From Rhizophagus irregularis (Eukaryota), in assembly GCF_026210795.1 (NCBI RefSeq), contig NC_089435.1, positions 1,426,001 to 1,490,000 on the forward strand: a DNA stretch of 64,000 bases, in the 5' to 3' direction. A model generated the notes under the pieces. The model was not told the DNA's origin. It saw only the letters and a program-made list of their open reading frames with translations, and did no database searches. Every line of letters begins with the position of its first letter. Position 1 is the first letter of the stretch. Made by a program: the position numbers and the translations under genes. Of this stretch, positions 4,831-51,502 are shown piece by piece.

Positions 4831-5324
4831 ATGATTAATTTAAGTGATGTCAAATTTTTTTTATATATTATAGAATAAAAACTTATATTATTTTGCGTTT
4901 ATTTTCTCAACAACTAGTGATCAAGATTAAATTAAGATTAGAATTTATATATTCGTTATTAACGAATGATATTTTTAAGACTGTAACAAAAAAGAATTAT
5001 AAACTAACAATAATTTTATTTTATAAATATGTTAAATAGTAATTTAATGCATTTTATACATTCATTTTTGTAAGAAATGCAATTACTTCTTTTTATTTAA
5101 ATCACATGAACGGCAAATTTTATCATTACTTTTAAAGGAATTTCTCAACGCAGATCAGTGCATCGGAAAAATTATGGCCCGCAAATATTTTTTTATTGTA
5201 ACTTCTACTTTTGGTTATCAGTATTCCTTTTAAGTAACTCATTCATGAAAGTTTTCGTATAAAAAACATTTGTCTAGAAAAATAATAATTTTTTTAGTAA
5301 AACAAATTTCTAAAATAAAAACAA

Positions 5325-8300
5325 ATGGAAACCAAATTCAGTAAATCTAATACCTCAGTTACTGATATAGTAAATACCAAAAATTGTTTATATTGTAATA
5401 AACCCTTTACTGAAGAATTATGGTGTAAAGAATGTATTAATTCTTTAGAAAAATCAGCAGAAAATGGTAATAAAGTAGTGATGTTTAATTTAGCCAAAAG
5501 GTATTACAATGGGGAAGGAACAGAAAAGAATTTAGAAAAAGCCTTCTATTGGTATCAAAAAGCAGCAGAAAATGGGTTCACTGATTCAATGCATGATCTA
5601 GCCAATAGATATTATAGTGGAGAAGGAACAGAAAAGAATTTAGAAAAAGCCTTTAATTGGTATCAAAAAGCAGCAGAAAATGGTTTCACTAAAGCAATGC
5701 ATAATTTAGCAAGTAGATATTATAGTGGAGAAGGAACAGAAAAGAATTTAGAAAAAGCCTTTTATTGGTATCAAAAAGCAGCAGAAAATAGTTTCACTGA
5801 TTCAATGCATTATTTAGCCATGTGTTATGAAGATGGAGAAGGAACAGAAAAGAATTTAGAAAAAGCCTTTTATTGGTATCAAAAAGCAGCAGAAAATGGT
5901 TTCACTGGTTCAATGTATAATTTAGCAAATAGATATTATAGTGGAGAAGGAATAGAAAAGAATTTAGAAAAAGCCTTTTATTGGTTTCAAGAAGCAGCAG
6001 AAAATGGCTTAGCTTATGCAATGAATAATTTAGCTGTATGTTATGGAAATGGAGAAGGAACAGAAAAGAATTTAGAAAAAGCCTTTAATTGGTATCAAAA
6101 AGCAGCAGAAAATGGTTTCACTAAAGCAATGCATAATTTAGCAAGTAGATATTATAGTGGAGAAGGAACAGAAAAGAATTTAGAAAAAGCCTTTTATTGG
6201 TATCAAAAAGCAGCAGAAAATAGTTTCACTGATTCAATGCATTATTTAGCCATGTGTTATGAAGATGGAGAAGGAACAGAAAAGAATTTAGAAAAAGCCT
6301 TTTATTGGTATCATAAAGCAGCAGAAAAAGGTGCTAATGAATCAATGTTTAGTTTAGCCATGTATTATGAAAATGGAGAAGGAACGGAAAAGAATTTAGA
6401 AAAAGCACTTTATTGGCATCAAAAAGCAGCAGAAAATGGTTTCACTGATTCAATGCATAATTTGGCAATCAAATATTATAGTAAAGGAGGAGCAGAAAAG
6501 AATTTAGAAAAAGCCATTTATTGGTATCAAAAAGCAGCAGAAAATGGCTTCAATGGTTCAATGCATTATTTAGCAATGTGTTATGAAGATGTAGAAGGAA
6601 CAGAAAAGAATTTAGAAAAAGCCATTTATTGGTATCAAAAAGCAGCAGAAAATGGTTTCACTGATTCAATGCATAATTTAGCAAATAGATATTATAGTGG
6701 AGAAGGAACAGAAAAGAATTTAGAAAAAGCCATTTATTGGTATCAAAAAGCAGCAGAAGATTGTTTCACTAATTCAATGCACAATTTAGCCATGTGTTAT
6801 GAAAATGGAGAAGGAACAGAAAAGAATTTAGAAAAAGCCATTTATTGGTATCAAAAAGCAGCAGAAAATGGTTTCACTGATTCAATGCATAATTTAGCCA
6901 ATAGATATTATAGTGGAGAAGGAACAGAAAAGAATTTAGAAAAAGCCTTTTATTGGCGTCAAAAAGCAACAGAAAGTAACAAAATAGATTTTAAAAATGA
7001 AGATGAATTATGTAATATATGCAACCAACTATATACTAATTACCAGTGGTGTCAACAATGTAATGCTAAACAATTTCAACATGATTTTTCAAAGTGGACC
7101 AGTAAAAATGAATTTATTGATAAATTTATTCAAGATTCACAACTAAATGCCAAAAATAGTTATGAAGTTTTAGAATGGATAGCTTATGATAAATTGTCAA
7201 ATATTAATTATTATGATAAAGGAGGATTTAGTGAAATTCATAAAGCTATCTGGTTAGATGGACCTATTTTTAGTTGGAATTTTGACAAACAACAATGGAA
7301 TAGACAATTAAGCTATGAGGTTATTCTTAAAACACTTAATCATTCATCAAATTTAAATAGTAATTTTCTGGATGAGGTATATATATCATTTATATTTATT
7401 AGCAAATTTTTTTCATTTACAAAAATTAATTTTGTTTTATTATTTATACAGTGGAAATATCATTATAATTGTCAGAAAAAATCATTTTCAAAGTTTATTC
7501 AATTTTTTGGATTTACCCAGGATCCAAATAATTTAAATTATATAATAGTAATGAGTTATGCAAAAAAAGGATGTTTAAGAAAATGTTTATCTGATATAAT
7601 TAAATTTAAATGGCAAGAAAAGTTACAATTATTGAAAAAAATTGTATTAGGGCTCAAAGTAATTCATGAATCAAATTTAACTCATGGTGATTTTCATGAT
7701 GGTAATATTTTAATATCAGATAGCTATAATGAGTTATTTATTATTGATTTAGGATTATGTAAACCTGTAAATGATTTACAAGATTCTGACAATAAAATTA
7801 AAGAAATTTATGGAGTATTACCTTATATGGCACCTGAAACATTAAGACAAAAACCCTATACACCAGCAAGTGATATTTATAGTTTTTCAATGATAATGTG
7901 GGAATTTACATCAGGTATTCCTCCATTTAATCATGTAGCACATGATCATCACCTCATTTTGAGTGTCTGTGAAGGGAAACGCCCTGAAATTATTGAAAAT
8001 ACTCCAAAATGTTATATAGATTTAATGAAAAAATGTTGGGATTCAGATTCTTCCAATAGACCAACCATAACAATGCTTGAAGATATTATATCTGAGTGGG
8101 TTAGATGTATTAATAAATATTATACAATTAACAGGGATGGAAATTATAAATATGAAGTACCTAATATTGATAATAAATTAAAGGATGATATGATTGAATT
8201 TATAGAATCAAACAAAACTTTAGTACATAAGCAAGTAAATGCTTCTATTATACAATCTCATACACAAGCATACTATACAAGTCGTAAACTTACTGAAATC

Positions 8301-8348
8301 TTAGTTCATGAAAAGTCTGATTGTTTTGAATGTATAGTTAAAATTTAA
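5325..8348 (+). CDS. Sel1-repeat (14x) tyrosine-kinase-like kinase; one in-frame intron at 7377-7451 (~982 aa after splicing)
   Basis: ORF 5325..8348 with 36-aa Sel1 repeats GEGTEKNLEKAFYWYQKAAENG and kinase motifs KGGFS, VILK, HGDFHDGN, DLG, APE, SDIYSF. The 75-nt GTATAT...ATACAG segment after LDE sits where the related kinase at 21701-28508 has its intron. Confidence 0.93.
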   Translation: METKFSKSNTSVTDIVNTKNCLYCNKPFTEELWCKECINSLEKSAENGNKVVMFNLAKRYYNGEGTEKNLEKAFYWYQKAAENGFTDSMHDLANRYYSGEGTEKNLEKAFNWYQKAAENGFTKAMHNLASRYYSGEGTEKNLEKAFYWYQKAAENSFTDSMHYLAMCYEDGEGTEKNLEKAFYWYQKAAENGFTGSMYNLANRYYSGEGIEKNLEKAFYWFQEAAENGLAYAMNNLAVCYGNGEGTEKNLEKAFNWYQKAAENGFTKAMHNLASRYYSGEGTEKNLEKAFYWYQKAAENSFTDSMHYLAMCYEDGEGTEKNLEKAFYWYHKAAEKGANESMFSLAMYYENGEGTEKNLEKALYWHQKAAENGFTDSMHNLAIKYYSKGGAEKNLEKAIYWYQKAAENGFNGSMHYLAMCYEDVEGTEKNLEKAIYWYQKAAENGFTDSMHNLANRYYSGEGTEKNLEKAIYWYQKAAEDCFTNSMHNLAMCYENGEGTEKNLEKAIYWYQKAAENGFTDSMHNLANRYYSGEGTEKNLEKAFYWRQKATESNKIDFKNEDELCNICNQLYTNYQWCQQCNAKQFQHDFSKWTSKNEFIDKFIQDSQLNAKNSYEVLEWIAYDKLSNINYYDKGGFSEIHKAIWLDGPIFSWNFDKQQWNRQLSYEVILKTLNHSSNLNSNFLDEVYISFIFISKFFSFTKINFVLLFIQWKYHYNCQKKSFSKFIQFFGFTQDPNNLNYIIVMSYAKKGCLRKCLSDIIKFKWQEKLQLLKKIVLGLKVIHESNLTHGDFHDGNILISDSYNELFIIDLGLCKPVNDLQDSDNKIKEIYGVLPYMAPETLRQKPYTPASDIYSFSMIMWEFTSGIPPFNHVAHDHHLILSVCEGKRPEIIENTPKCYIDLMKKCWDSDSSNRPTITMLEDIISEWVRCINKYYTINRDGNYKYEVPNIDNKLKDDMIEFIESNKTLVHKQVNASIIQSHTQAYYTSRKLTEILVHEKSDCFECIVKI
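5469..6980 (+). repeat. Coding tandem array of 14 x 108-bp Sel1 units
   Basis: Counted in the translation; units 3-4 recur almost identically as units 7-8 (432-bp offset). Confidence 0.95.
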
Positions 8349-10554: not shown

Positions 10555-10904
10555 TTTATATTAATTATGTATGAAATTTCATACATACGTGGTATCATGC
10601 ATTATTTGTCATATGATTTTAAGTAAACATTTTTTTTCTTTTTGAAGATAAATTTAGAAGTGCTGCGTAAGATATAAATAAATAAAGTATAAATCATGAA
10701 TGGTCAATTATAAGTTAATTTTTTACAGTATTGTTTATGAAAATTTTTACAGTATTGTTAATGCAAATCATTAATATTTCCATTTTCCTTTCATGATGAT
10801 TTGCATACTACATATGCAGGGCACATATTTGTTTGCATACTTTACGCCATCATCCGTCCTAAAAGTATAAATTAAAGTTACAAAGCCTAATTTTCTTTTT
10901 TTTT

Positions 10905-10935
<31 letters not shown>

Positions 10936-10936
<1 letters not shown>

Positions 10937-12363
10937 TGCCGGAACTTAATAAAGACGTAATTTTCTTAATATTAAAAGAATTACAACAAAATGATGTAAA
11001 ATCTCTTTATCCATATCTTTTGATTAATAAAACTTGGTGTGAAACTACAGTACCAATTCTATGGAAGAATCCTGTTAATCGTTATTACGAAATTAATAAA
11101 GTAAATAATAACTTATTTAATGTAATTATTTCACATATATCAGAAGAATCAAAAGAAAATTTGAAGAATCAAGGAATTGAAATTTTTACAAAAACTTATA
11201 AACGACCTTCATTTAATTATATTAGTTATTGGAGACATTTGGATTTATTATTTTTACAACTCATGATGGATTTTTTTTTAAAATATAAAAATATTGAAAG
11301 GTTCAAATTTTCTATTATAGGAAAAGAAATATTGAATCTATTCAATAAAAATACAAAATTTATTTTTTTGAATTTGATTAATTCTCAAAGGTTCAATACA
11401 TTCCATATTTCAGGGACTGAAAATTGTTTTTCAGAACTTGAAACTTTTCATTGTAATGATTTTATCAATTGTAATACTTTAAAAAGATTAGCTATTATAA
11501 ATACATCAATTAAAGAATTGAAATTTGAAATTGACAATAATATCGATAAACCTGGAATCGTTAGATTGATTGAAGTTCAAAAAAATCTAAAAAATGTTTA
11601 TTTAATTCTTAATTATACATATGTTGTTAATGAATCATATCACACAACAATAGAAAATTCGCTTATTAAATGTGCAAATACTGTTCAGTATTTGAGAATA
11701 GATTGGAAACCTTACACAAAATTTCTTTCATATTTTGTAAATTTATTAAGCTTAGAAATAAAAGCTCCTCATGACGCAAATTGGAGCCATTTAGAAGAAA
11801 TATCTTTACCTCTTTTAAAGTTTTTAAAAGCACATTCCATACCATCTAGAGTGTTGACAAGTTTAATTAATAATACAAAAGCGCATCTCATTGAAATTAG
11901 TATTTTTTATCAAGGTATTGATGATGGAAAACTTATCAAAACAATTTGTCAAAGTTGTCCGAATCTTAGCTATCTTAGATTATCAATGTATAATACTAAT
12001 GATATTTTGAAATTTGAAGATCTATTGATTAATTGTCTATCCTTAAATAGATTAGAAATTACCGGGATGAATGTTTCTAATGAATTTAATTGGGATATGC
12101 TATTCATAATATTGGCAAAGTTTTCACCAATTGGATTATTTAAGTTTAAATTTTCTTCTTATGGGAGTAAATTCAAATCAAGTTCTTTAAAATTATTTTT
12201 TGATAATTGGAAGAATAGATATCCTATGTTATTACAAATAATTTCAGCGGAACATATAAGCAATGATCGAAAGAAATTAGAAAATCTGGTACAAATATAT
12301 AAAGTAAATGGTATAGTTGAAAAATATAACATTGATGGTGATGATTTTGAAGGGTTTAAATAG
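10936..12363 (+). CDS. F-box / RNI-like LRR protein (475 aa), family A
   Basis: N-terminal LNKDVIFLILKEL...LYPYLLINKTWCETTVPILWKNP F-box-like motif, followed by LRR-like segments (CPNLSYLRLS); intronless. Confidence 0.88.
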
Positions 12364-21700: not shown

Positions 21701-24700
21701 TTAGATCACATGGTCTAAACATTGAGAATGGTCATCATCATCATATTTTGGAAGATCTTTTGTAAAGGAATTAAGTAATCGAGATATATAAATAGCTTGT
21801 GGATGGGTAGTTATTTGATAATTTTTAGTGGATATAGAATTTGCTTCTCTATATTCTTCTGCTTTCTTGAATTGCATTCCAATTTCTTCCATGAAAAAAT
21901 CTTCTCTCTTGAATTGCACTTCAATTACTTCATTTTCTTCTATGAAAAAACCTTCTCTCTTAAATTGCATTTCAATTTCTTCATTTTCTACTATGAAAGT
22001 ATCTCTTTTATATGAAATATGAAATGATGTGATTAATTTATCTATCTCAAAAATATTTGGTCTGTTGTTTGGGATTGAATCCCAACACTTTTTCATTAAC
22101 TCGATATAACATTTTGGTGCTTCCGTTTCACTTATTTCAGGTCTGACTCCATTACAAATATCTAATGCAAGACAATGATCATGTGCACGATTGTAAAAGG
22201 GTTGTTTTCCAGTTGCTACAAAATACATTATCATACCAAAGCTATAGATATCTGCTGCTTGAGTATAAAGTTTTCCTCTTAATACTTCAGGAGAGACATA
22301 AGGCATGACTCCATAAATTTTAGTTTCATCTATATTATCAACCTCTCCACATAAGCCCATATCTGAAATCGATATACAATTACTAAAATCATTTATAATA
22401 TGCAATAATAATATATTTCCTGTATGAAAATCACGATGAACTAAATTTTTTTGATGAATTTCTTTAAGACCATTAATAATATTAAGCAATGCAGATAATT
22501 TATCTTCCCATCTAAAATATACACAATTTTCATTTATCCAATGATTAAAATTTCCATCTTTTGCATATTGGAGAACCATAACATATTCTTCTGTATCTAA
22601 ATTTTGAGATATTCCATATATATTAAGAATATTACTACTTTTATTTATTGAGTATTCCTTAACCTAGTAAAATTTATTTATAGTAAGTAATAATTACTAG
22701 TATATCATGTCTAAAAAATCATTTGCAATGGAAAATTCTTATAAATAATTAATTTAAAGAAATTTCATACCTCATTTAAAAATTTATCAGTAATATTTTG
22801 GGAATTATGTAAACATTTCAAGGCAATTACTCTATTTGGATTCCTATTATATAATTTTCTATCTACATTATATTCTAAGGGGCCATCCTTCCATTTTGCA
22901 GAATATACTGTAGAAAAGCCACCCTCACCTATTTTCTTAATATTACTAAACTGACTGTATGGTATCCATTCAAATACTATTTCATTATAGTCATTTATTT
23001 TTAATCGCATTTCTTGAATGCAATTATCAATTTTTTTATTTCCACTTGTACAATTAAGAACCAGAATATAATCTCCTGTATCTGGATTTTGAGATATTCC
23101 ATACAATACTTGAAATGCTTTGTATTTTGTTGGATATTTCTTAGCCTAAATACAAATAAAGAGATTGTAAATAAATAATTAAAAGTATTTAGATATTTAA
23201 TGAAATTTCATACTTCATTTATTAAAGAATCAATGGATTCTTGTGAATTGTGTAAACATTTTAAAGCAACTTCTTTATTTGTATTTCTTGTATATCCACA
23301 AGTCTCTCCATTATGATATAATGAACCATCCTTCCATATTGCTGAATATACTGTTATAAGGCTATTTTTGCCTTTCTCTTTAATTTCATTAAACTGATTG
23401 TATGGTATCCATTCAAGCACTACTTCATCATAGTCATAATCATTTATTATTAGTTGTCTTTCATGGATGAAATCATCAATTTTTTCATATCCACTAATCC
23501 ATGTATTATTTTTTTGAACTAAGATATAGTCTCCTGTATATGGATTTTGAGATATTCCATACAATGCTTGAAATTTTTTATGTTTTGTTGGATATTTTTT
23601 AGCCTAATTATAAATAAAAGAGATTGTAAATACATTAATCAAAAGTATATAAATAATTAAGGAAATTTTATACCTCATTTATTAAAAAATCAATGGATTC
23701 TTGTGAATTACATAAACATTTTAATGCAACTTTTTTATTTGAAGTTCTTGTATAATAACCCCGTATCCAATCATCCTTATAGCATAATGGACCATCCTTC
23801 CATATTGCTGAATATACTGTTATAAGGCCATTTTTACCTGTTTCTTTAATTTCATAAAATTGATCATATGGTATCCATTCAAGCACTATATCATCTTTAT
23901 TGTAATTAGGTTTTAATTGAACTTCTTGAATGAAATCATCAATTTTTTTATTTCCATTGATCCATATATGATTATTTTGAACCAAAATATAATCTTCTGT
24001 ATTTGGATTTTGAGATATTCCATACAATGCTTGAATTGCTTTATAATTGGTTGAATATTTTTTAGCCTAATTGTAAATAAAAGAGATTGTAAATATAATT
24101 AATAAAATATTTTTAAATATTTAAAGAAATTTCAAACCTCATTTATTAAAGAATCAATGGATTCTTGCGAATTATGTAAACATTTTAAAACAACTTCTTT
24201 ATTTGAACATCTTCTCCCTAGTCCTTGAAAGAAATTATGGTACAATGGACCATCCTTCCATATTGCTGAATATACTGTTATAAGGTCATTTTTGCCTTTC
24301 TCTTCAAATTCATTAAACTGATTATATGGTATCCATTCAAGCACAATATCATTATAATCCTCCATATTTAATTGTCTTTCTTGAATGAAATCATCAATTT
24401 TTTCATATCCACTGATCCATACATTATTTTTTTGAACTAAGATATAGTCTCCTGTATCTGGATTTTGAGATATTCCATACAATACTTGAAATGCTTTATA
24501 ATTTGTTGGATATTTTTTAGCCTAATTGTAAATAAAAGAAATTGTAAATATGTTAATCAAAAAAATATTTAAATATTTAAAGAAATTTCATACTTCATTT
24601 ATTAAAGAATCAATGGATCCTTGCGAATTATGTAAACATTTTAAAGAAACTTTCTTATTTAAATCTCTTGTACAATTACTCCAACTATGCTCCCTGTATA

Positions 24701-27700
24701 ATGGACCATCCTTCCATATTGCTGAATATACTGTTATATAGCTATTTTTACCTGTCTCTTTAATTTCATTAAACTGATTATATGGTATCCATTCAAGCAC
24801 GATATCATTATAATCCTCCATATTTAATTGTCTTTCTTGAATGAAATCATCAATTTTTTCATATCCACTGATCCATACATTATTTTTTTGAACTAAGATA
24901 TAGTCTCCTGTATCTGGATTTTGAGATATTCCATACAATACTTGAAATGCTTTATAATTTGTTGGATATTTTTTAGCCTAATTGTAAATAAAAGAAATTG
25001 TAAATATGTTAATCAAAAAAATATTTAAATATTTAAAGAAATTTCATACTTCATTTATTAAAGAATCAATGGATCCTTGCGAATTATGTAAACATTTTAA
25101 AGAAACTTTCTTATTTAAATCTCTTGTACAATTACTCCAACTATGCTCCTTGTATAATGGACCATCCTTCCATATTGCTGAATGTACTGTTATAAGGCTA
25201 TTTTTACCTATTTCTTTAATTTCATTAAACTGATTATAAGGTATCCATTCAAGTACTATGTTATCACAATACATTCTTTTTAATTGACTTTTTTGAATGA
25301 AATCATCAATTTTTTTATTTTCACTAGTCCATATATTTTGAACCAAAATATAATCTCCTGTATATGGATTTTGAGATATTCCATACAATACTTGAAATGC
25401 AATATGTTTATGTTTTGTTGGATATTTTTTAGCCTAATTGTAAATAAAAGTGATTATAAATATAATTAATAAAGTATTCAATTATTTAAAGAAAGTTTCA
25501 TACCTCATTTATTAAAGAATTAATAGATTCTTGCGAATTATGTAAACATATTAAAGCAACTTTTTCATTTGAATTTCTTGTATAATTACTCCAACTATAC
25601 TCCTTGTATAATGGACCATCCTTCCATACTGCTGAATATACTGTTATGAGACCACTTTTGCCTGTTTCTTTAATTTCATAAAATTGATCATATGGTATCC
25701 ATTCAAACACGATATCATTATAATCCTCTATTTCTAATTGTCTTTCTTGAATGAAATCATCAATTTTTTCATTTCCACTTGTCCAAATAAGAACCAAAAT
25801 ATAATTTCCTGTATTTGAATTTTGAGATATTCCATATAATGTTTGAAATGCATTATTTTTTGTTAGGTATTTTTTAGCCTGAATATAAATAAAAGAGATT
25901 GTAAATATATTAATCAAAAGTATAATAATTAAGGAAATTTTATACCTCATTAATTAAATAGTCAATGGATTCTTGTGAATTATATAAACATTTTAATACA
26001 ACTTTTTTATTTGAATCACTTGTATATTCTCTATTTTGTTTATTCCAATAAAATGGGCCATCCTTCCATATTGCTGAATATACTGTTACAAGACCATTTT
26101 TTCCTATCTCTTTAATTTCATAAAATTGATCATATGGTATCCATTCAAGCACTATATCATTAAAATGCGCTAATTTTAATCGTCTTTCTTGAATGATATC
26201 ATCAATTTTTTCATTTCCGCTTGTCCAAATAAGAACCAAAATATAATCTCCTGTACTTGGACTTTGAGATATTCCGCATAATACTTGAAATGTATTATGT
26301 TTTGTTGGGTATTTTTTAGCCTGAATATGAATAAAAGAGATTGTAAATATATTAATCAAAAGTATAATAATTAAGGAAATTTTATACCTCATTAATTAAA
26401 TAGTCAATGGATTCTTGTGAATTATATAAACATTTTAATGCAACTTTTTTATTTGAATCTCTCATATAATTACTCCATCCATACTCTAAGCATAATGGAC
26501 CATCCTTCCATATTGCTGAATATACTGTTACAAAACCATTTTTTCCTATCTCTTTAATTTCATAAAATTGATCATATGGTATCCATTCAAGCACTATATT
26601 ATTAAAATGCGCTATTTTTAATCGTCTTTCTTGAATGAAATCATCAATTTTTTCATTTCCACTGAACCATATATAACTATTTTGAACCAAAATATAATCT
26701 CCTGTACTTGGACTTTGAGATATTCCATATAATACTTGAAATGTATTATGTTTTGTTGGATATTTTTTAGTCTAAATATAAATAAAAGAGATTGTAAATA
26801 TATTAATCAAAAGTAAATAAATAGTTAAGGAAATTTTGTACCTCATTTATTAAAAAATCAATGGATTCTTGTGAATTATATAAACATATTAACGCAACTT
26901 TTTTATTTAAATCTCTTTTATAATCACTCCATTTATCCTTCATATATAATGGACCATCCTTCCATACTGCTGAATATACTGTTATAAGGCCATTTTTACC
27001 TGTTTCTTTAATTTTATAAAATTGATTATATGGTATCCATTCAAGCACGATATCATTATAATCCTCTATTTTTAATTGTCTTTCTTGAATGAAATCATCA
27101 ATTTTTTCATTTCCACTGAACCATATATGATTGTTTTGAACTAAAATAAAATCTCGTGTATTCGGATTTTGAGATATTCCGCATAATACTTGAAATGCAT
27201 TATGTTTTGTTGGATATTTTTTAGCCTAATTATAAATAAAGGAGATTGTGAATATATTAATCAATAGTATATAAATATCAAGAAAATTTTATACCTCATT
27301 TATTAAAAAATCAATGGATTCTTGTGAATTATATAAGCATTCTAAAGCAACTTTTTTATTTGAATCTCTTATATAATTACTCCATCCATACTCTAAGCAT
27401 AATGGACCATCCTTCCATATTGCTGAATATACTATTATAAGGTCATTTTTGCCTGTTTCTTTAATTTCATAAAATTGATCATATGGTATCCATTCAAGCA
27501 CTATATCACTATAATCTATTTCTAATTGTCTTTTCTGAATGAAATCATCAATTTTTTCATTTCCACTGAACCATATATAACTATTTTGAACCAAAATATA
27601 ATCTTTCGTATCTGGATTTTGAGATATTCCATACAATGCTTGAAATGCTTTATGTTTTGTTGGACATTTTTTAGCCTAATTTTAAATAAAAGAGATTGTA

Positions 27701-28508
27701 AATATAATTAATAAAGTATTTAAATATCATTTAAAGAAATTTCATACCTCATTTATTAAAGAATCAATAGATTCTTGCGAATTATGCAAACATTTTAAAG
27801 CAACACTTTTATTCGAACTTCTTCTCCATAGTCCTCCGTAATTACGGTACAATGGACCATCCTTCCATATTGCTGAATATACTGTTATAAGGTCATTTTT
27901 GTCTATCTCTTTAATTTCATCAAACTGATTGTATGGTATCCATTCAAGCACTGTATCTTTATAGGCATTTATTATTAATTGTCTTTTCTGAATGAAATCA
28001 TCAATTTTTTCATTTCCACTGAACCATATATAATTATTTTGAACCAAAATATAATCTTCCATATCCGGATTTTGAGATATTCCATACAATGCTTGAAATG
28101 CTTTATGTTTTGTTAGACATTTTTTAGCCTAATTGTAAATAAAGAGATTGTAAATATAATTAATAAAGTATTTAAATATTTAAAGAAATTTCATACCTCA
28201 TTTATTAAAGGATCAACGAATTCTTGTGAATAATGTAAACATTTTAAAATAACTTTTTCATTTGTTTTTCTTGTATAACTATTACACAAATCACGATATA
28301 ATAGACCTTCCTTCCATATTGCTGAATATACTGTTATATGGTCATTTTTGTCTATCTCTTTAATTTCATTAAACTGATTGTATGGTATCCATTCAAGCAC
28401 TATATTATCTTTATTATCATTGGTTTTTAATTGCCCTTCTTGAATGAAATCATCAATTTTTTCATTTCCACTGGTCCAATTTTCTAAAAATATGTTTTGA
28501 GAAAACAT
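21701..28508 (-). CDS. Giant tyrosine-kinase-like kinase with 12 tandem orphan kinase N-lobes (14 exons, ~1954 aa)
   Basis: Exons 28508-28197, 28128-27748, 27675-27295, 27225-26842, 26771-26388, 26320-25946, 25878-25504, 25433-25050, 24977-24594, 24521-24138, 24066-23674, 23603-23214, 23145-22771 and 22663-21701. All introns are GT-AG and phase 0, and every exon length is divisible by 3 (sum 5865). The final module has GEGGFS, IALK, HRDFHTGN, DMG, SPE and ADIYSFG. Confidence 0.88.
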
Positions 28509-33159: not shown

Positions 33160-33469
33160 AACAGCATTAATAGCAACAGCAATAGTAACGGTAACAGACA
33201 TTAAATAACATTTTATTATATATACGTGTAAAAAGTAGTGGGCCAAATATGATTTTTTTTTTTCTAAGGGTATGAAAAATGGAGATATTAAATTATGAAA
33301 CATGAGCCGATAATTTCCGTTAATGATTTACACACTGCATAAATAATGTACTACTTCCAAAATAACTAACTTTGTTACACGTTGCACACTTTACGCCGTC
33401 CATCCTATATAATAGAGATAATAAAGGCTACCAGTTAATTTAATTTTTTTTTTTATTTATTTAAAAAAA

Positions 33470-34930
33470 ATGTTGAAGCTTAATAAAGACGTAATTTTTT
33501 TAATATTAGAAGAATTACAAGATGATAATAAGTCACTTTATTCATGCCTTTTAGTAAATAGAACTTGGTGTGAAACAACCGTTCCGATTTTATGGAAGAA
33601 TCCCGCTAGACAATATTATTCAACCAACAACGCTTATAATATTTTATTAAATGTAATACTTTTACATTTATCGGAAGAATCAAGAAATAATTTGAAATAT
33701 CAAGGAATAAACCTTTTTATGAAACCATATCAAAGACCTTTATTTAATTATATTAGTTTTTGGAGACATTTGGATTTATTTTTTTTAGAACATATGATAA
33801 ATGTTTTTGATACGTATACTGTAAAATCCAAAATTTTTATTATAGAAGATGAGATATTTAAATTATTTATTAATGGAAATACAAATTTTGTTTCTCTTTT
33901 TATTCCAAAATTACTTAATCCTCGTATATTCAATATTTTAGGGAATGAACATTGTTTTTCAGGACTTGAATACTTTTATTGTGATGATAATACCAACAGT
34001 AATATTTTAGAAAGATTGGCAAAGATAAGCACATCAATTGAAAAATTGAGAGTTGATATTAGATATAATGATGTTGATAATCCTGGAATCGTTGAATTAA
34101 TTGAAGGTCAAAAAAATTTAAGAGATGTCAAATTAATCTATAATAATTCATATCTTAATAATGAGTCATATCGAAAATCACTTGAAGAATCGTTGATTAA
34201 ATGTGCGGATACTATTCAATATTTGAGAATAGATTGGAATCCTGTTACAAATTTTCTTTCAACTCTCGTAAATTTAGTAAGTTTAGATTTGAATTTACGC
34301 CTCACACATTTATTACTTGAAACAAATTGTCATTTAGAAAAAGTTTCTTTACCCGTTTTAAAAATTTTAAGAGCACAGCAAGTCCCACCAAAGGTTTTAG
34401 CAAGTTTAATTGAAAGTACAAAAGGACATCTTATTGAAATAAGTATTTTACATCAAAGTGTTGATGATGGAAAACTTATCCGAACAATTTGTAAATATTG
34501 TCCAAATCTCTGTTATCTTAAATTATCAATATTTACCAAGAGTCTCACAGAATTTGAAAATTTATTAATTAGTTGTCAATTTTTAAATGAATTAGAAATT
34601 ATTGGTAGTTATAATAATATAAATAATTTTAATTTTAATGAATTATTTAATTGGGATAAATTATTTTCAATCTTAACAAAATCTTCACCAATTAGTTTAT
34701 TTAAATTTAAATTTTTTTCTGCTTGGAAAATCGAATCGGAATCTATAAGATTATTTCTTGATAATTGGAGGGATAGATATCCTATGTTATTACAACTTTT
34801 TTTAACAAAAAATAAGAATATGGAGCAATTACATCAGCAGCAACATCAGAAATTAGAAGATATAATAGAACATTATAAAAAAATTGGCGTAATTAAGAAA
34901 TATTACATTGATGAGGTTTTAATATTCTAA
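33470..34930 (+). CDS. F-box / RNI-like LRR protein (486 aa), family A
   Basis: MLKLNKDVIFLILEELQDDNKSLYSCLLVNRTWCETTVPILWKNP; collinear with 10936..12363. Confidence 0.9.
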   Translation: MLKLNKDVIFLILEELQDDNKSLYSCLLVNRTWCETTVPILWKNPARQYYSTNNAYNILLNVILLHLSEESRNNLKYQGINLFMKPYQRPLFNYISFWRHLDLFFLEHMINVFDTYTVKSKIFIIEDEIFKLFINGNTNFVSLFIPKLLNPRIFNILGNEHCFSGLEYFYCDDNTNSNILERLAKISTSIEKLRVDIRYNDVDNPGIVELIEGQKNLRDVKLIYNNSYLNNESYRKSLEESLIKCADTIQYLRIDWNPVTNFLSTLVNLVSLDLNLRLTHLLLETNCHLEKVSLPVLKILRAQQVPPKVLASLIESTKGHLIEISILHQSVDDGKLIRTICKYCPNLCYLKLSIFTKSLTEFENLLISCQFLNELEIIGSYNNINNFNFNELFNWDKLFSILTKSSPISLFKFKFFSAWKIESESIRLFLDNWRDRYPMLLQLFLTKNKNMEQLHQQQHQKLEDIIEHYKKIGVIKKYYIDEVLIF

Positions 34931-37940: not shown

Positions 37941-38937
37941 TTAAATTATTACATTATCTCATTTTCCGTGAAGTTTGATAATTTGAGCATACGGAACTTC
38001 AAATAACGACAAAAAACATTCTTTAATAAAGTATAATTTTTACATTTAATTTGCCCATGAATAATTTTGTTATGTCTAGTGTTTTATTTCAACGTGCTTT
38101 ATAAGGTTCCAGTTTCTTTATTTGGATTGAGCGGGATTCCTTTATTAATTTTGATTCACGTACAGCATGAATATATTTTATATATATATATACATTTAAA
38201 TTCTATATACTTTTACTGTATGTATTTTAAAATTTTTCTTTTATTTCAATTTAAAAGATTATTGAATATATATGATATTGTTTTATATACCTCATAGTTT
38301 ACAAGACACAGTATTATGCGCTTATATTGTTTATTGTTGTTCAGATATGGTTTATTATTGTTCTACATGTATAGTGTCACATATTATTTTATATTACAAA
38401 AGCTTATTCAGTTATCCCGTATATGTGTAACCTTATTTTAAAACAAAAAGGGAAATTATAATCAAACATATAGACGATCATTCATCATTGATGTATCTAT
38501 TGTAAGATATTATTCTTACTTTTATTTATGGTTTAAAGAAATAGAATAATATCAAAAGTTTCAAAGTTATGATACTAGCAAGATATAAAGGCAGTAAAGA
38601 ACGTATTAAATTTATTTTCATTTTGAACCACATAATTTTTTAAATGTTTATATATTTTTTTTTTTTAGAAAATAAAAAAAGCCTATCGATCAACCATGTG
38701 ATCGTCAAAGCATGTGATTCTCGTAAATCTCCATGCAGGTAAGATCGTAACCAATCAGAAATTTTTGGAAAAAGCTCATTTTGTTACTAAAACAAAAATT
38801 CATTGAACGCAGATCTGTTGTGTATTTATTACACCAAATACGCCAACTATATTAAATATAAATAAAAAAGTTATTGATTTTTTAATAGCTTGGCAAACCC
38901 TTTTTTGTCTTTTTTTAAGAAAAAAAAAGAAAAAAAA

Positions 38938-40446
38938 ATGTCAACACTAGTTGAAGACGTACTTCGATTAATATTAGAAGAACTAAAATATGATAGAATA
39001 TCACTTCATTCATGTATTTTAGTTAATAAAACTTGGTGTAAGATGACGGTACCAATTTTATGGAAAAATCCTGGACAAAATCTTTTAAATGATAATTCAA
39101 AGAATTTATTATTCAATATAATAATTTTACATTTATCAAATGAATCAAGAAATTTTTTAAAGAAACAAGAAATCGATCTTTTTAAAGATATAATTGAATC
39201 ATATAAACATCCTTTATTATTTAATTATATAAGTTATTGGAGATATTTAAATATACATCTTTTAAAAAGTATGATAGTTTCAATAAAAAATATTAAAAAT
39301 TTTGATAAAACTGAAATACCTATTATAAGAAATGAAATATTTAATTTATTTATTAATAATAATAGAAATACAAAATTTTTACGTCTTTGTTTTCCTCAAC
39401 AATTTGATTATCAATTACATCGTATTTCAGGGGCTGAACATTGTTTTTCAAAACTTGAATCATTTCGTTGTTATGCAAATACCAATAAATATATTTTAGA
39501 AGGTTTAGCAGGGATAAGTAAATCTATTAAAAAATTAATATTTGATATTATGTATAGTATTAATTCTGGAATAATTAAATTAATTGAAGCACAAAATAAT
39601 TTAAAGGAAGTTCATTTTATTGATCATACAATAAATTTAAGAGATGAATCTTTTAGTAGACCACTTGAAGAATCATTAATTAAACATGCTAATACTATAC
39701 AATATTTAAGAATTGATTGGAAACCTAATACAGAAATTCTTTCATATCTTGTAAATTTAATAAGTTTAGATATAAATTTAAGTTTAGTGAGAGATATAAA
39801 TTGGAATCATTTAGAAAAATTATCTTTACCATTATTAAAATTTTTAAGAACTCAAAAAGTTCCATCTAGAATTTTATCAAATATAATTGAAAATACAAAA
39901 GGTTACCTTACTGAAATTAGTATACTTTATGAAGGTATTAATGATAAAAAACTTATTCCAACAATTTATCATAATTGTCCAAATCTTAAATATCTTAAAT
40001 TATCATTATCTGTTAGAAATATTATAGAATTTGAAAATTTATTAAATAATTGTCAACTTTTAAATGGATTAGTTGTTGATATATATGATCATATTATTAA
40101 ATTTGATTGGGATAAATTATTTAAAATATTATCAAAATCTTCACCAATTAGTTTAATTAAATTTAAATTTTCTTCTAATAGAATAATTTCTTTGGAAACT
40201 TTAAAATTATTTTTTGATAATTGGAAAAATAGAAATCCAATGTTTTTACATATTATTCCAATGTATTGTTTTACAAGAGCTGAACAACGAAAACAAAAAC
40301 AACAAGAATTACAACAATTAGAAAATTTAATTAAAGAATATAAAGTGAAAGAAATGATTAAAAGATATTATGTTGATTCACATGGTTCTGCATTTGAAGA
40401 TTTTGAGTGGATTCAAAGAAGATCTGATGCTTACATTGAATTTTAG
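38938..40446 (+). CDS. F-box / RNI-like LRR protein (502 aa), family A
   Basis: The ATG at 38938 (MSTLVEDVLRLILEELKYDRISLHSCILVNKTWC) aligns with paralog starts; intact to stop. Confidence 0.9.
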   Translation: MSTLVEDVLRLILEELKYDRISLHSCILVNKTWCKMTVPILWKNPGQNLLNDNSKNLLFNIIILHLSNESRNFLKKQEIDLFKDIIESYKHPLLFNYISYWRYLNIHLLKSMIVSIKNIKNFDKTEIPIIRNEIFNLFINNNRNTKFLRLCFPQQFDYQLHRISGAEHCFSKLESFRCYANTNKYILEGLAGISKSIKKLIFDIMYSINSGIIKLIEAQNNLKEVHFIDHTINLRDESFSRPLEESLIKHANTIQYLRIDWKPNTEILSYLVNLISLDINLSLVRDINWNHLEKLSLPLLKFLRTQKVPSRILSNIIENTKGYLTEISILYEGINDKKLIPTIYHNCPNLKYLKLSLSVRNIIEFENLLNNCQLLNGLVVDIYDHIIKFDWDKLFKILSKSSPISLIKFKFSSNRIISLETLKLFFDNWKNRNPMFLHIIPMYCFTRAEQRKQKQQELQQLENLIKEYKVKEMIKRYYVDSHGSAFEDFEWIQRRSDAYIEF

Positions 40447-44065: not shown

Positions 44066-45200
44066 AGACGTAAAGAAAGGGGTCTAAAAGAAAAAGACCT
44101 AATAAAGAGAAGACCTAGACAGAGAGAAGATAGACCTAAAAAAAGAAGACGAAAAAAATAAGTTAAAATACCATAACACACACACACTCCACCACTCACA
44201 CACTCCCAACCCACATACCTAAAGAGAGATGTAAAGAAAAGGGCCTAAAAGAAGATCTAATAAAGAGAAGTTCTAGACGGAAGAAGATAAACCTAAAAAA
44301 AAGATGACGAAAAAAAAAATAAAATGAAACACCACATACACAAACCCACACACAAACCCACACTCCCACACTCCCAACCCGCACTCCCACTCCCACCCAA
44401 CCCACACTCCCACACTCCCAACCCGCACTCCCACTCCCACCCACCAACACTCCCAACCCACACTCCCACACTTTCACACTCCCAACCCACACGCACTCCT
44501 AACCCACACTTTCACACTCCCAAACCACACGCACTCCCAACCCACACTCCCACACTCCCAATCCGCACTCCCAACCCACACTCCCATACTCCCAACCCAC
44601 ATACCTAAAAGAGAGATGTAAAAAAAAGGGCCTAAAAGAAGATCTAATAAAGAAGTTCTAGACGGAAGAAGATAAACCTAAAAAAAAGATGACAAAAAAA
44701 AAATGAAATGAAACACCACATACACAAACCAACACTCCCACACTCCCACACACAAACCCACACTCACTCAACCCACATACCTAAGGAAGAAGTGAAGAAA
44801 AGGGCCAAAAGAAAACCTAATAAAGAGAAGACCTAAACAGAGAGAAGATAGACCTAAAAAAAGAGATGAAAAAAAAAAATGACGAAAAAAAAGATGACGA
44901 AACGAAAGAAAAAAGATGACAAAGCGAAAAAAAAGATGATAAAGCAAAAAAAAAGATGACGAAGTGAAAAAAAAGATGATGAAACGAAAAAAAGGGGTCT
45001 AAAAAAAGACCTAGACAGAGAGAAGATAGACCTAAAAAAAAGACGAAAAAAAGATTATAAAAACACCACACATAAACCCAACCCACACTCCCACACTCTA
45101 AAGGAAGACGTAAAGAAAAGGTCCTAATAGATAGAAGACCTAATAAAGAGAAGCCTAGGCAGAGAAAAGATAGACCTCGAAAAAAGAAGACGAAAAAAGT
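44066..45200. repeat. Composite repeat: about five AGACCTA / purine-rich blocks alternating with C/A-rich CCCACACT / CCCAA tracts
   Basis: aagacctaataaagagaag(acc/ttc)tagac recurs at ~44095, 44255, 44640, 44815 and 45137; CCC-tract array at 44345-44600. Confidence 0.85.
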
Positions 45201-45910
45201 ATATATTGTGTATATACAATATTGTTAATTGACTAAAAAAAAGACGATGAAAAAAAAAGAGGGGTATTGAGGGTATATAAATACTTTTTCGAATACACAG
45301 TGACTAATAATAAGATAGTTAGTATCTTGCATAATACAATTGTTTGACAATACAATTGTTTGACTCGGATTTTTTTTTTTTCATTATGATACTAATTGTT
45401 TATTCCCCAAGGATGATGCGATCAGCTACAGTATATCAACTATATCATGTTGCCGGTTACCTTTTTTTTTATTTTTTTTTATTTTCAGTTTTTTTTTTAA
45501 AACTCAGAAAATTTTTTTTTTCTATTTTTGGTCCTCTTTTTCAAACCCGAAAAAATAAATTTTTTTCATTTATTTATATAATTTATATCTTGTGTATTAG
45601 ATAAAAATCTTACGCTATAGTGTAAACTTTTATTGATAAAATGTACTACAATAATGTATGTGTGGCACAGAATGCAAGAAAGATAAAAAGAAAAATTATT
45701 TTATCATTTTTATTATATAAACCATCATTTTTTCATATCAAATAAATTAATTGTGAAATAAAAAAAAGTTATTTCAACACATAGTCGTTGTTTATATTTT
45801 TTTCACGAATATGATCTATATGTTCATTATAAATTATAATAGTATTTTTTATTACGTAAATTAAGAAAATTACTGCGAAGTAATTCGTCACCAGTATAGC
45901 GTGATAATAG

Positions 45911-50289: not shown

Positions 50290-50990
50290 AAAAATTTTAA
50301 GTTGTTAGCAAAGTATCCATAACTATTAGAAGTATTACTGCAGTAATCACAAAATTTGTTTTGGCTTGGTGGATTAAGTCCACATTCTTTTTTGTATATG
50401 GATGTGATTTTTTGGATGTGAAAGACTGTGCAAATTCATTATCATTCCAAAGATAATCAATAAAAATTGCATCAGGTCCCCGAAATATATATACAGAGGT
50501 AAGGTGGCGGCCAAAAAAAAATTACTATTAGCTGTACGCATTTTTTCAGGGCCGGAATTATGAAGGTAATACCTTTCCACCAGGAATTATCTATAAAAAA
50601 AGATTTTCATATTTTTTTTTTGCTGATTTGCACGCAAACTTGAACCTGTATTTCTGGGTCCTATTGCATCCCGCCTTAACCATTCTCCAGCTGTTACTCT
50701 TCCAGATGTATTCCCTCAAACTAAACTGTGTTTTCAACAGGATATTCATCAAACATTTGCAATTGAGATTTAAGAGTATTGACGATAGGGTGTTGAATAG
50801 TTATCCAATATTGAATATCAGATATAAAGGCAAACATTACTTTGTCATAATTTTTTCGTCCAAACATTCTCATTACTGTCCATAAGTCAAATATTATTTC
50901 AACATATTGATCAAAATTATTTCCTCTAAATAATATAGAATATACATCCAATGTAACAGAAACTAAATTATCTAACAATCTATGAATGTG
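50290..50990 (-). pseudogene. Decayed fragment of a transposase-like gene
   Basis: LDNLVSVTLDVYSILFRGNNFDQYVE...RKNYDKVMFAFISDIQYW...FDEYPVEN, then NTSGRVTAGEWLRRDAI|FIDYLWNDNEFAQSFTSKKSHPYTKKNVDL and NPPSQNKFCDYC in shifting frames. The DEYPVEN motif resembles the third-acidic-residue region of DDE transposases (inference). Confidence 0.5.
50474..50662. mobile_element. 189-bp MITE with 14-bp imperfect TIRs and an 8-bp TSD
   Basis: ATTGCATC at 50466-50473 and 50663-50670; ends AGGTCCCCGAAATA and TATTTCTGGGTCCT; removing it restores RRDAIFIDY in the host frame. Confidence 0.88.
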
Positions 50991-51502
50991 TGATATCCAA
51001 AACCCTTGATTGTCAAATCGTGCTACAATATCTTGATATAAGACGCTTTACATGAAGACTCTTGAAGTCAAAAGTTCTTCATATATAATGCAATTTTTAT
51101 ATTACTGTCTTGTTATAAAATCATCAGAGTATTTATTTAAAAAAAAATTCTATTATTGTAATATTGTATATTAAAGATGGATACATAGTAGTTTATGAAA
51201 TACAAACAGTTAAACCAAAAAAAGAAACTTATATTCCTTACAATTGGTAAATTCTTTTTAATGGATAAGCAAAATGGTTAAATAAATTTTAATTAATCTA
51301 AGATTATTCTATTATTTAAAAAATATTGCATGAATATTTGGCGATTTGGTTAGTATCTTAAATTAAATGCATGTTCAGTTTTAATTTTATTTATTTATCA
51401 AGCCTTTAAAAATGGAAAAAACACGTCTATTTTTGCATTTTTGTAACTTCGAAAATCTAATTGCTTGAACGTTGTTATGACAAAAATTATATATTGTTCA
51501 GG

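What the first reader, a model, noticed from the sequence alone, without database searches (positions are those of the whole stretch)
21701..28508. Kinase receptor candidate built from 12 tandem orphan kinase N-lobes on symmetric phase-0 exons
Seen: the small ORFs at 22.7-28.5 kb are exons of one gene. Each ~375-393-nt exon carries beta4-beta5 of one N-lobe (AKKYPTKHKAFQxLYGISQNPDTGDYILV), then the pre-kinase helix, beta1-beta3 and alphaC of the next (WxSGNEKIDDFIQ...EWIPY...VALKCLHNSQESIDSLINE). Only the last module has a Gly-rich loop (GEGGFS) and a C-lobe; the other 12 have GKNG/GKND-type loops, and three have lost the beta3 Lys (VALE in exon 3, VALI in exons 4 and 7). I saw no stops or frameshifts in any copy. 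Known: tandem kinase-pseudokinase proteins (Rpg1, Yr15/WTK1) are plant immune receptors, and TKL kinases are greatly expanded in Glomeromycota. Inference: the half-kinase has been co-opted as a repeat sensor or decoy unit, taking the place held by Sel1 repeats in the neighbouring kinases.
Basis: partly seen in the sequence, partly recalled or inferred. Interest (0 to 1): 0.88.

Follow-up and report, generated by a model that had tools for sequence, protein, structure and literature searches.

The report
Kinase with twelve orphan half-kinase repeats
A gene of a symbiotic root fungus is predicted to make a protein with twelve copies of the front half of a protein kinase ahead of one complete kinase; hundreds of similar protein records exist in these fungi, and the copies, with a constant core and a highly variable loop, likely form a recognition array that controls the enzyme.

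Summary
Observation confirmed. A minus-strand gene (28508 to 21701) of 14 exons, with GT-AG phase-0 introns, splices in silico to 1,954 aa with no internal stop: 12 orphan kinase N-lobes, then one kinase with all three catalytic residues. Two public Rhizophagus irregularis protein records match 13 exons each, letter for letter. A three-unit model folds confidently (pLDDT 90, pTM 0.79); its units match kinase N-lobes (best RIPK2, Z 10.0). The core is under purifying selection (omega 0.27). A beta2-beta3 hairpin is hypervariable and, in orphan units, rich in aromatic residues; positive selection there is not significant. The architecture is a family (up to 19 lobes) in three Glomeromycota orders, often with CxxC spacers. 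Corrections: the protein has no membrane segment, and the symmetric exons are a by-product of an older intron, not exon shuffling. Best reading (0.5): an intracellular variable binding or decoy array. The nearest precedent is the single partial-kinase duplication of wheat RWT4. No RNA evidence or ligand was obtained. Ten paper searches found no such array. An earlier scan note (e1-9917726) reports tandem kinase front ends in another fungal genome, read there as non-coding.

The parts
21701..28508 (-). Whole gene, 14 exons, predicted 1,954-aa protein: 12 orphan N-lobe units plus one complete kinase and a C-terminal tail
28197..28508 (-). Exon 1 (coding part): start codon, leading helix, beta1-beta3 and alphaC of unit 1
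   Evidence: identical in P0002 and P0264
27748..28128 (-). Exon 2: beta4-beta5 of unit 1, then helix to alphaC of unit 2
27295..27675 (-). Exon 3 (unit 3 has beta3 Lys replaced by Glu)
26842..27225 (-). Exon 4 (unit 4 has beta3 Lys replaced by Ile)
26388..26771 (-). Exon 5
25946..26320 (-). Exon 6; present in record P0002, absent from record P0264
25504..25878 (-). Exon 7 (unit 7 has beta3 Lys replaced by Ile)
25050..25433 (-). Exon 8
24594..24977 (-). Exon 9 (query for the homology searches)
24138..24521 (-). Exon 10
23674..24066 (-). Exon 11
23214..23603 (-). Exon 12 (helix to alphaC of the last orphan unit)
22771..23145 (-). Exon 13: beta4-beta5 of unit 12, then the catalytic N-lobe with Gly-rich loop GEGGFS (22929-22912), beta3 Lys and alphaC Glu
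21701..22663 (-). Exon 14: beta4-beta5, hinge and C-lobe with HRDFHTGN (22438-22415) and DMG (22363-22355), then the tail
   Evidence: (PF07714 112 bits)
22088..22522 (-). In-frame 435-nt GT..AG stretch that record P0002 treats as an intron (it would remove HRD and DMG) and record P0264 keeps as coding; unresolved
24346..25149 (.). 348-bp exact direct repeat (24346-24693 = 24802-25149, lag 456): recent duplication or gene conversion across exons 8-10; introns 8 and 9 are identical
28129..28196 (-). Intron 1, type of the 12 homologous 67-72-nt phase-0 introns placed just after the alphaC Glu codon
22664..22770 (-). Intron 13 (107 nt), the same position inside the catalytic N-lobe

Best explanation
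The gene is predicted to encode a soluble intracellular kinase whose twelve upstream half-kinase units are predicted to fold and pack into an ordered array that likely works as a variable binding or decoy surface and likely regulates the one complete kinase at the end. Shown in sequence: each ~128-aa unit is a leading helix plus beta1-beta3, alphaC and beta4-beta5, without a C-lobe or Gly-rich loop, so it cannot form a catalytic site by itself. The core is conserved and a hairpin between beta2 and beta3 differs from unit to unit. Predicted: the units fold as N-lobes with a defined orientation to each other. Inferred: the hairpin tips, and perhaps the two other variable loops, bind foreign or non-self proteins, or trap proteins that target the fungus's many related kinases. 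Binding would switch the terminal kinase on by clustering or by release of inhibition. Inferred origin: an in-frame duplication of a segment with exonic breakpoints and one old intron, followed by unequal crossing-over and gene conversion that add, lose and remix units.
For: Fold: three-unit model pLDDT 90.3, pTM 0.79; units 2 and 3 align to N-lobes of RIPK2 (Z 10.0, 2.3 A, 87 residues) and MLKL (Z 9.6, 2.4 A, 84), unit 1 to Csk (Z 9.2, 2.4 A, 81). Constraint: core omega 0.27, likelihood ratio against omega=1 of 56.7. 8 of 8 exon gaps are multiples of 3, against 3 of 8 intron gaps. 16.6 stops were expected and none seen; 0 of 20,000 simulations gave zero. Specialisation: GxGG[FY] in 56 of 62 terminal lobes but 5 of 779 orphan units, 4 of those 5 being the last unit of their protein. 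Spacer-less orphan units form their own clade, apart from terminal lobes (27 of 27 rows, SH-aLRT 99). Variability: hairpin columns reach 3.8 bits; 446 distinct tips in 611 units; W/Y/F make up 17% of orphan tip residues against 2% in terminal lobes, and Trp occurs in 27% of 446 distinct orphan tips against 0 of 35. Turnover: a 348-bp identical tract, units grouping largely by gene, 21 of 120 listed proteins on one 4.9-Mb contig (hand count), and no listed relative outside the gene's own cluster above 73% identity among rows covering at least 95% of the kinase region (120 of 249 rows seen). Precedent: RWT4's partial kinase duplication is needed for effector binding (10.1101/2024.04.30.591956, passages).
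Against: No ligand, expression or activity data. Hairpin omega 2.6 is not significantly above 1 (likelihood ratio 3.1), the NG86 interval is 0.54-2.2, and I chose the region after seeing the alignment; recombination between units also breaks the tree model. The hairpin is nearly as variable in catalytic lobes (p-distance 0.675 against 0.723); the orphan excess appears only among close pairs (0.62 vs 0.41, 0.69 vs 0.49) and vanishes at core distance 0.25-0.35. The aromatic bias may be inherited once, since these units are one clade, and it is weaker in spacer-type arrays (10% vs 5%). The Gly loop and alphaC-beta4 loop also vary more in orphans, which is what relaxed constraint predicts. Introns diverge no more than nonsynonymous sites (0.14 vs 0.14). 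The six-lobe model of P0056 has pTM only 0.50. 88 of 295 multi-unit records have no C-lobe piece, and 3 of 18 metagenome loci show a frame change inside a unit. Kinase genes of this fungus are enriched for CG methylation (PMC8647823, passages).
Confidence: 0.5

Rival explanations
1. The array is a structural or regulatory rod: a rigid spacer, an oligomerisation surface or a multi-copy scaffold for the fungus's own N-lobe-binding partners (chaperones, activators, related kinases). The variable loops are merely tolerant surface loops.
For: High pTM for three units (0.79). Strong conservation of the leading helix, EWIPY and YGISQNP motifs, and retention of both beta3 Lys and alphaC Glu in 481 of 611 spacer-less orphan units. 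The hairpin also varies in catalytic lobes.
Against: Array length runs from a few to 19 lobes and units are remixed, which is odd for a fixed-length spacer. Trp-rich tips occur only in orphans.
Confidence: 0.22
2. Near-neutral expansion: unequal crossing-over amplifies an in-frame segment. Selection only keeps the frame open and the extra lobes folded so that the downstream kinase is still made; the array has no function of its own.
For: Any upstream stop would destroy the kinase, so the lack of stops is expected without a repeat function. Symmetric exons are a by-product of an older intron. Hairpin omega is not distinguishable from 1. Many records are fragments. An unchecked scan note (e1-9917726) describes about 19 tandem kinase front ends in a non-coding fungal locus.
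Against: Deleting units would also keep the frame, yet arrays persist in three orders. Spacer-less orphans are a distinct clade shared by R. irregularis and R. clarus with fixed differences from catalytic lobes. Core omega is 0.27.
Confidence: 0.2
3. The long protein is not made: the locus is silenced, only the last exons are transcribed, the C-lobe is spliced out, or the array length is an assembly error.
For: No RNA data seen. P0002 skips 145 aa of the C-lobe and P0264 lacks exon 6. One 348-bp exact repeat could confuse assembly. Kinase genes are often methylated.
Against: All 13 introns keep GT-AG and all exons keep frame. Units are only 79-91% identical in DNA. Two separate records give exons 8, 9 and 10 in the same order. 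Purifying selection needs translation at least until recently.
Confidence: 0.08

Closest known systems
Wheat RWT4/WTK3 integrated partial kinase duplication (KDup); 10.1101/2024.04.30.591956, passages read
   Same: A partial copy of the protein's own kinase front end, modelled as a short helix plus beta-sheet, placed N-terminal to an active kinase; proposed there as an integrated effector-binding domain, with residues needed for AvrPWT4 binding.
   Different: RWT4 has one KDup that stops before the catalytic Lys, plus a full pseudokinase. Here there are 12 complete N-lobes (to beta5) in tandem, no second full kinase fold, in a fungus, with a hypervariable beta2-beta3 hairpin. No homology between the two was tested; convergence is assumed.
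Plant tandem kinase proteins (Rpg1, Yr15/WTK1, Sr62TK); 10.1101/2024.08.30.610287, passages read
   Same: A catalytic module plus a non-catalytic kinase-derived module in one intracellular chain. Sr62TK is predicted to bind its effector through a variable beta-finger that extends from an N-lobe.
   Different: These have two whole kinase folds; 0 of 367 fetched proteins have two C-lobes. The Sr62 finger extends the last two N-lobe strands, whereas this hairpin lies between beta2 and beta3.
Expanded Glomeromycota PF07714 kinases with Sel1 repeats (PMC6123716, PMC8647823; passages read)
   Same: Same kinase type, leading helix and intron position as the Sel1 kinase at window 5319-8348; an N-terminal repeat array ahead of a C-terminal kinase; high-copy, accessory-type genes.
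   Different: The repeat is a 128-aa half-kinase with no Pfam model (3 of 3 orphan exons gave no family at E<=1), not a 36-aa Sel1 repeat. The passages read do not mention it.
Fungal NLR sensor repeats, HNWD WD40 arrays of Podospora (PMC12881547, passages read)
   Same: Internally conserved repeats that evolve in concert, are exchanged between copies and vary in number; there, specificity lies in the repeats.
   Different: No NACHT or NB-ARC module here; the output is a kinase, and the repeat is an enzyme fragment. Diversifying selection and a role in non-self recognition are not shown here.
RIPK2, RIPK3 and MLKL kinase-domain N-lobes (PDB 4c8b, 4m66, 6vbz)
   Same: Best structural matches of single units (Z 8.7-10.0, 2.3-2.4 A over 81-87 residues).
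   Different: Solved N-lobes come with their C-lobe; no listed chain matched a packed multi-unit array at low rmsd. The scores are nearly tied with other kinases, so no special kinship to necroptosis kinases is implied.

Membership tests
Hanks-type protein kinase, PF07714 (terminal domain) | Whole kinase domain above the Pfam cut-off | tested here: met
   P0264 residues 1453-1717, 169 bits against a cut-off of 23.1; exon 14 alone 112 bits
Hanks-type protein kinase, PF07714 (terminal domain) | beta3 Lys, catalytic-loop Asp and Mg-binding Asp present (three-residue definition in PMC13519141, passages) | tested here: met
   IALK 1616, HRDFHTGN 1710, DMG 1735 in place of DFG, plus GEGGFS and alphaC Glu
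Hanks-type protein kinase, PF07714 (terminal domain) | Phosphotransfer activity | not testable with these tools
   needs an assay
TKL group | Placement with reference TKL kinases in a kinome tree | not tested
   Only indirect: PF07714 scores above PF00069 and fold neighbours are TK/TKL kinases. The TKL label is recalled.
Kinase N-lobe fold (orphan units) | Five-stranded sheet plus alphaC superposable on solved N-lobes | tested here: met
   based on a predicted model of units 9-11 only (3 of 12)
Pseudokinase domain (orphan units) | Whole two-lobed kinase fold lacking catalytic residues | tested here: not met
   No C-lobe between units; the next unit starts directly after beta5
Plant tandem kinase proteins (TKP/WTK) | Two complete kinase-fold domains in one chain | tested here: not met
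   One C-lobe in the model; 0 of 367 fetched proteins have two
Plant tandem kinase proteins (TKP/WTK) | Recognition of a pathogen effector that triggers defence | not testable with these tools
   no ligand known
RWT4-type integrated partial kinase duplication | N-terminal partial copy of the protein's own kinase front end | tested here: met
   Orphan units are 46-53% identical to the catalytic lobe and share its intron
RWT4-type integrated partial kinase duplication | The duplicated part is needed to bind a foreign protein | not testable with these tools
   needs binding assays
Fungal NLR (HNWD-like) | Central NACHT or NB-ARC domain | tested here: not met
   No such Pfam hit on P0264; the length is taken up by N-lobe units, the kinase and a 107-aa tail
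Fungal NLR (HNWD-like) | Repeats under concerted evolution | tested here: met
   348-bp identical tract, identical introns 8 and 9, units grouping largely by gene
Fungal NLR (HNWD-like) | Positive selection at binding positions of the repeats | tested here: inconclusive
   hairpin omega 2.6, likelihood ratio 3.1 against omega=1
Membrane receptor kinase | Signal peptide and transmembrane helix | tested here: not met
   Highest 19-residue Kyte-Doolittle mean is 1.16; the N-terminus is hydrophilic. No dedicated predictor was run.

The most novel reading that the evidence does not exclude
Arbuscular mycorrhizal fungi have turned the kinase N-lobe into a new class of tandem-repeat binding module: a constant half-kinase scaffold showing an antibody-loop-like hairpin, remixed by recombination (and possibly by in-frame exon skipping, which rebuilds a complete chimeric lobe) into a repertoire of intracellular non-self or effector receptors, each wired to its own kinase.
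Probability: 0.4. Interest if true: 0.92.

Novelty: new variant of a known kind. Interest (0 to 1): 0.76.

Why it matters
The kinase N-lobe is normally treated as half of an enzyme that depends on its C-lobe (general knowledge). An array of 12 to 18 free N-lobes kept under purifying selection would be a repeat type with no Pfam model and no solved counterpart among those listed. It also gives a concrete, testable handle on an open question: what the hugely expanded, isolate-variable kinase families of arbuscular mycorrhizal fungi perceive. If the hairpins are binding loops, the family is a fungal parallel to the single partial-kinase decoy of wheat RWT4, multiplied into a repertoire. If the neutral rival holds, it is still an unusual case of half-domain amplification that automatic annotation hides under names such as Ste20p or 'uncharacterized'.

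Tried and rejected
Sequence search of PDB with one orphan exon: only 3 chance-level hits, none a kinase. Pfam on orphan exons: no family. BCS1_N, DUF4168 and similar Pfam hits on whole proteins have 0 passing stretches and are summed repeat noise. No whole genome was held, so paralogues in the window's own assembly could not be counted. No RNA evidence was obtained, so splicing and expression stay open. Complex prediction of the last orphan unit with the kinase of P0056: no answer, score 0.00, alignment not used; not used as evidence. Exon shuffling as the origin: rejected, because the same phase-0 intron lies after the alphaC Glu in the single-lobe Sel1 kinase (7377-7451) and in metagenome loci, and the repeat junction lies inside the exons. 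Repeated independent origins of arrays: the best trees group Acaulospora and Ambispora orphans with their own catalytic lobes, but one origin of all orphans is not rejected (p-AU 0.093), so I do not claim it. Positive selection on the hairpin: not significant. The first stop-codon simulation used a per-base reference that held a stop; it was redone with a codon-majority reference and gave the same result. Stop counts in metagenome loci are uninformative because the matches run into introns. MG-model and 'loop' codon fits stayed at their start values and were not used. No listed PDB chain matched a packed multi-unit array; this absence does not show a new fold. ESM Atlas: first hit 0.92 is probably the family's own cluster, the named rows are Mucoromycota except one low row. 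Weak Foldseek rows for unrelated proteins were ignored. Paper searches with no relevant hit: 0 papers; listings only, none describing N-lobe arrays by title or abstract start.
Full report
Observation. The region holds one minus-strand gene from ATG 28508 to stop 21701. It has 14 exons; all 13 introns are GT..AG and phase 0, twelve of 67-72 nt and one of 107 nt. The in-silico spliced frame is 1,954 aa with no internal stop. Cut at the WxSGN helix, it gives 13 units of about 128 aa. Units 1-12 are 63-87% identical to each other and 46-53% to unit 13. Only unit 13 has GEGGFS and is followed by a C-lobe with HRDFHTGN and DMG. The beta3 Lys is replaced in units 3, 4 and 7. Strand and helix names (beta1-beta5, alphaC) are my assignment from the model's secondary structure and recalled kinase convention.

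Independent support for the gene model. Record P0002, named Rhizophagus irregularis by its source, joins exons 1-13 exactly as I do with 0 mismatches, but treats an in-frame 435-nt GT..AG stretch of the C-lobe (22088-22522) as an intron. Record P0264 has 13 of 14 exons including the whole C-lobe and lacks exon 6. These are annotations, not transcripts; no RNA reads were examined. The highest 19-residue hydropathy mean is 1.16 and the N-terminus is hydrophilic, so the protein is predicted to be soluble and intracellular.

Fold. Orphan exons hit no Pfam family (3 of 3) and no kinase in PDB by sequence. A model of units 9-11 (P0002 1027-1413, 82-row alignment) has mean pLDDT 90.3 and pTM 0.79. 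Each unit shows a leading helix, a long beta1-beta2 hairpin, an extra hairpin (strands 59-61 and 68-70), beta3, alphaC and beta4-beta5. Against 48,161 PDB representatives the top rows are kinase N-lobes: RIPK2 Z 10.0, 2.3 A over 87 residues; MLKL Z 9.6, 2.4 A over 84; Csk Z 9.2, 2.4 A over 81. The 50 rows shown all carry kinase or kinase-containing entries and their scores are close together; Foldseek agrees. The high pTM suggests a set orientation between neighbours, but I saw no coordinates or error map. The six-lobe relative P0056 gave pLDDT 76 and pTM 0.50.

Family. A search of longer proteins with exon 9 gave 448 hits at E<=1e-10; all 120 listed are Rhizophagus or Glomus records made of N-lobe arrays, with or without a C-lobe. 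A full HMMER scan of 1.84 billion representatives gave 1,267 at E<=1e-10. I looked up 19 of the 142 unnamed ones, chosen as divergent multi-unit proteins: 13 Rhizophagus, 5 Acaulospora morrowiae, 1 Ambispora leptoticha, covering three orders of Glomeromycota. Of all 367 proteins fetched, 295 have three or more full units, 150 of these a full C-lobe, 97 also the HxD and Gly motifs, and 88 no C-lobe piece; the longest has 19 lobes; none has two C-lobes. These records span several isolates and annotations, so they are not gene counts. Many arrays carry a ~30-aa CxxC...CxxC spacer before each unit, a probable zinc ribbon (inferred from the motif); the window's subfamily lacks it. By hand count, 29 of the 120 rows share one locus-tag prefix and 21 lie on one 4.9-Mb contig. 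Among the 120 of 249 rows shown, none outside the gene's own cluster exceeds 73% identity with at least 95% coverage of the kinase region; shorter alleles were outside that search.

Origin. The intron sits just after the alphaC Glu codon. The single-lobe Sel1 kinase at 5319-8348 has a 75-nt phase-0 intron at the same place (7377-7451), and so do matches in all 18 metagenome loci, by donor site. The repeat junction, beta5 to the next helix, lies inside the exons. So the first event was an in-frame duplication with exonic breakpoints, and the symmetric exons are its by-product. One consequence remains interesting: skipping any exon would rebuild a complete chimeric lobe (inference). Turnover continues: a 348-bp exact repeat spans exons 8-10, introns 8 and 9 are identical, and units group largely by gene (165 units from 22 proteins, matches under 95 aa dropped). 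In an 80-row tree the spacer-less orphans form one clade (27 of 27, support 99), and Acaulospora orphans group with their own catalytic lobes (14 of 14, support 99), but one origin of all orphans is not rejected (p-AU 0.093).

Selection. On exons 2-12 (11 rows; exons 1 and 13 left out), the core of 107 codons has omega 0.27, with a likelihood ratio of 56.7 against omega=1; NG86 with only the hairpin removed gives 0.53 (0.39-0.75). All 8 exon gaps are multiples of 3, against 3 of 8 intron gaps. Placing the 203 observed substitution alleles at random gives 16.6 stops on average and zero stops in 0 of 20,000 runs. The 18-codon hairpin evolves about eight times faster (tree length 16.7 vs 2.2) with omega 2.6, which is not significantly above 1 (ratio 3.1). 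The region was chosen after inspection, its alignment is uncertain, and recombination violates the tree. Against a simple reading, introns differ at 0.14 of sites, no more than nonsynonymous sites overall; short AT-rich introns with splice signals are a poor neutral standard.

Specialisation. Among 841 units spanning at least 105 profile positions (shorter matches dropped), GxGG[FY] is in 56 of 62 terminal lobes and 5 of 779 orphans; the beta3 Lys is kept in all terminal lobes and 85-89% of orphans. Variation concentrates in the hairpin tip, the loop after the leading helix and the alphaC-beta4 loop. In spacer-less genes there are 446 distinct tips among 611 units, and on average 92% of hairpins within a gene differ (67 genes with four or more). 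W/Y/F are 17% of tip residues against 2% in terminal lobes; Trp is in 27% of 446 against 0 of 35. The control weakens this: terminal-lobe hairpins are nearly as divergent overall (0.675 vs 0.723), the excess shows only among close pairs, the bias is smaller in spacer-type arrays (10% vs 5%), and one clade can inherit one bias.

Mechanism. Shown: architecture, open frame, constraint on the core, loss of the ATP-binding loop, variable hairpin, turnover. Predicted: N-lobe fold and ordered packing. Inferred: the array binds or traps foreign or non-self proteins and controls the terminal kinase (0.5). Rivals: a scaffold or regulatory rod (0.22), near-neutral amplification tolerated upstream of a working kinase (0.2), and no long protein (0.08).

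Comparison with print. Passages read: 10.1101/2024.04.30.591956 describes one partial kinase duplication in wheat RWT4, needed for effector binding, and says no other resistance TKP has one. 10.1101/2024.08.30.610287 predicts effector binding by a variable N-lobe beta-finger in Sr62TK. PMC13519141 gives the pseudokinase definition. PMC6123716 and PMC8647823 report the expansion, and the second also the methylation, of kinase and Sel1 genes in R. irregularis, without this architecture in the passages seen. PMC12881547 covers concerted evolution of NLR repeats. No paper was read in full and no supplement was opened; supplements of genome papers could hold a domain description. Ten searches found no description of tandem N-lobe arrays; the library lacks most subscription journals. 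Scan notes: none by sequence or place; e1-9917726 reports about 19 kinase front ends in a non-coding fungal locus and e1-9859958 a hypervariable domain array before a protist kinase; neither was checked here.

Verdict. A real, conserved and apparently undescribed repeat architecture. It works most plausibly like an integrated-decoy or repeat-sensor kinase, but it is not a member of the tandem kinase or NLR families. New variant of a known kind; interest 0.76.

Noticed in passing
window 5319-8348 (+): Sel1-repeat kinase (14 Sel1 stretches) with a CxxC-x-CxxC motif, the same leading helix and one N-lobe of the same type as the array units (67 bits). Its 75-nt intron at 7377-7451 has no stop, so the whole gene reads as one ORF.
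   Followed up: partly
window 51692-55117 (-): Second Sel1-repeat kinase (20 Sel1 stretches; C-lobe exon at 51692-52180). Its N-lobe does not match the unit profile, so it is another kinase subfamily.
   Followed up: partly
window 10891-12363 (+), 33425-34930 (+), 38878-40446 (+), 59515-60951 (-): Four related single-exon ORFs of 478-522 aa that look like F-box/leucine-rich-repeat proteins (recalled resemblance); no Pfam hit at E<=0.001.
   Followed up: partly
window 413-1506 (-): A kinase C-lobe exon (859-1506; PF07714) followed by an ORF (413-862) that resembles the helical N-terminal domain of MLKL/HeLo-like fungal kinases (recalled resemblance; no Pfam hit).
   Followed up: partly
window 22088-22522 (-): Two public records disagree on whether this in-frame stretch of the C-lobe is an intron. 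If ever spliced out, it would give a kinase-dead isoform that keeps the array.
   Followed up: partly
window about 21890-22010 (-): The tail after the kinase holds about three short imperfect repeats of the type F-x-x-E-N-E-E-I-E-x-Q-F-K-R-E, where relatives shown have one.
   Followed up: no
P0158, P0188, P0191, P0230, P0249, P0245: Acaulospora and Ambispora arrays with a CxxC spacer before most units; in several the beta3 Lys is replaced throughout the orphan units, a further step from the enzyme.
   Followed up: partly
P0044 residues about 25-280: The first two units of this relative are nearly identical, a very recent unit duplication.
   Followed up: no
L001 about 405-420; L013 about 641-644; L015 about 1532-1535: Frame changes inside a unit in 3 of 18 metagenome loci: broken family members or assembly errors.
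   Followed up: partly
window 44196-45224: Low-complexity His/Pro/Thr-rich simple-repeat region with strong strand skew.
   Followed up: no
window 50721-51047 (-) and 62050-62964 (+): Short ORFs that look like transposon or retroelement fragments (recalled resemblance; no Pfam hit).
   Followed up: partly
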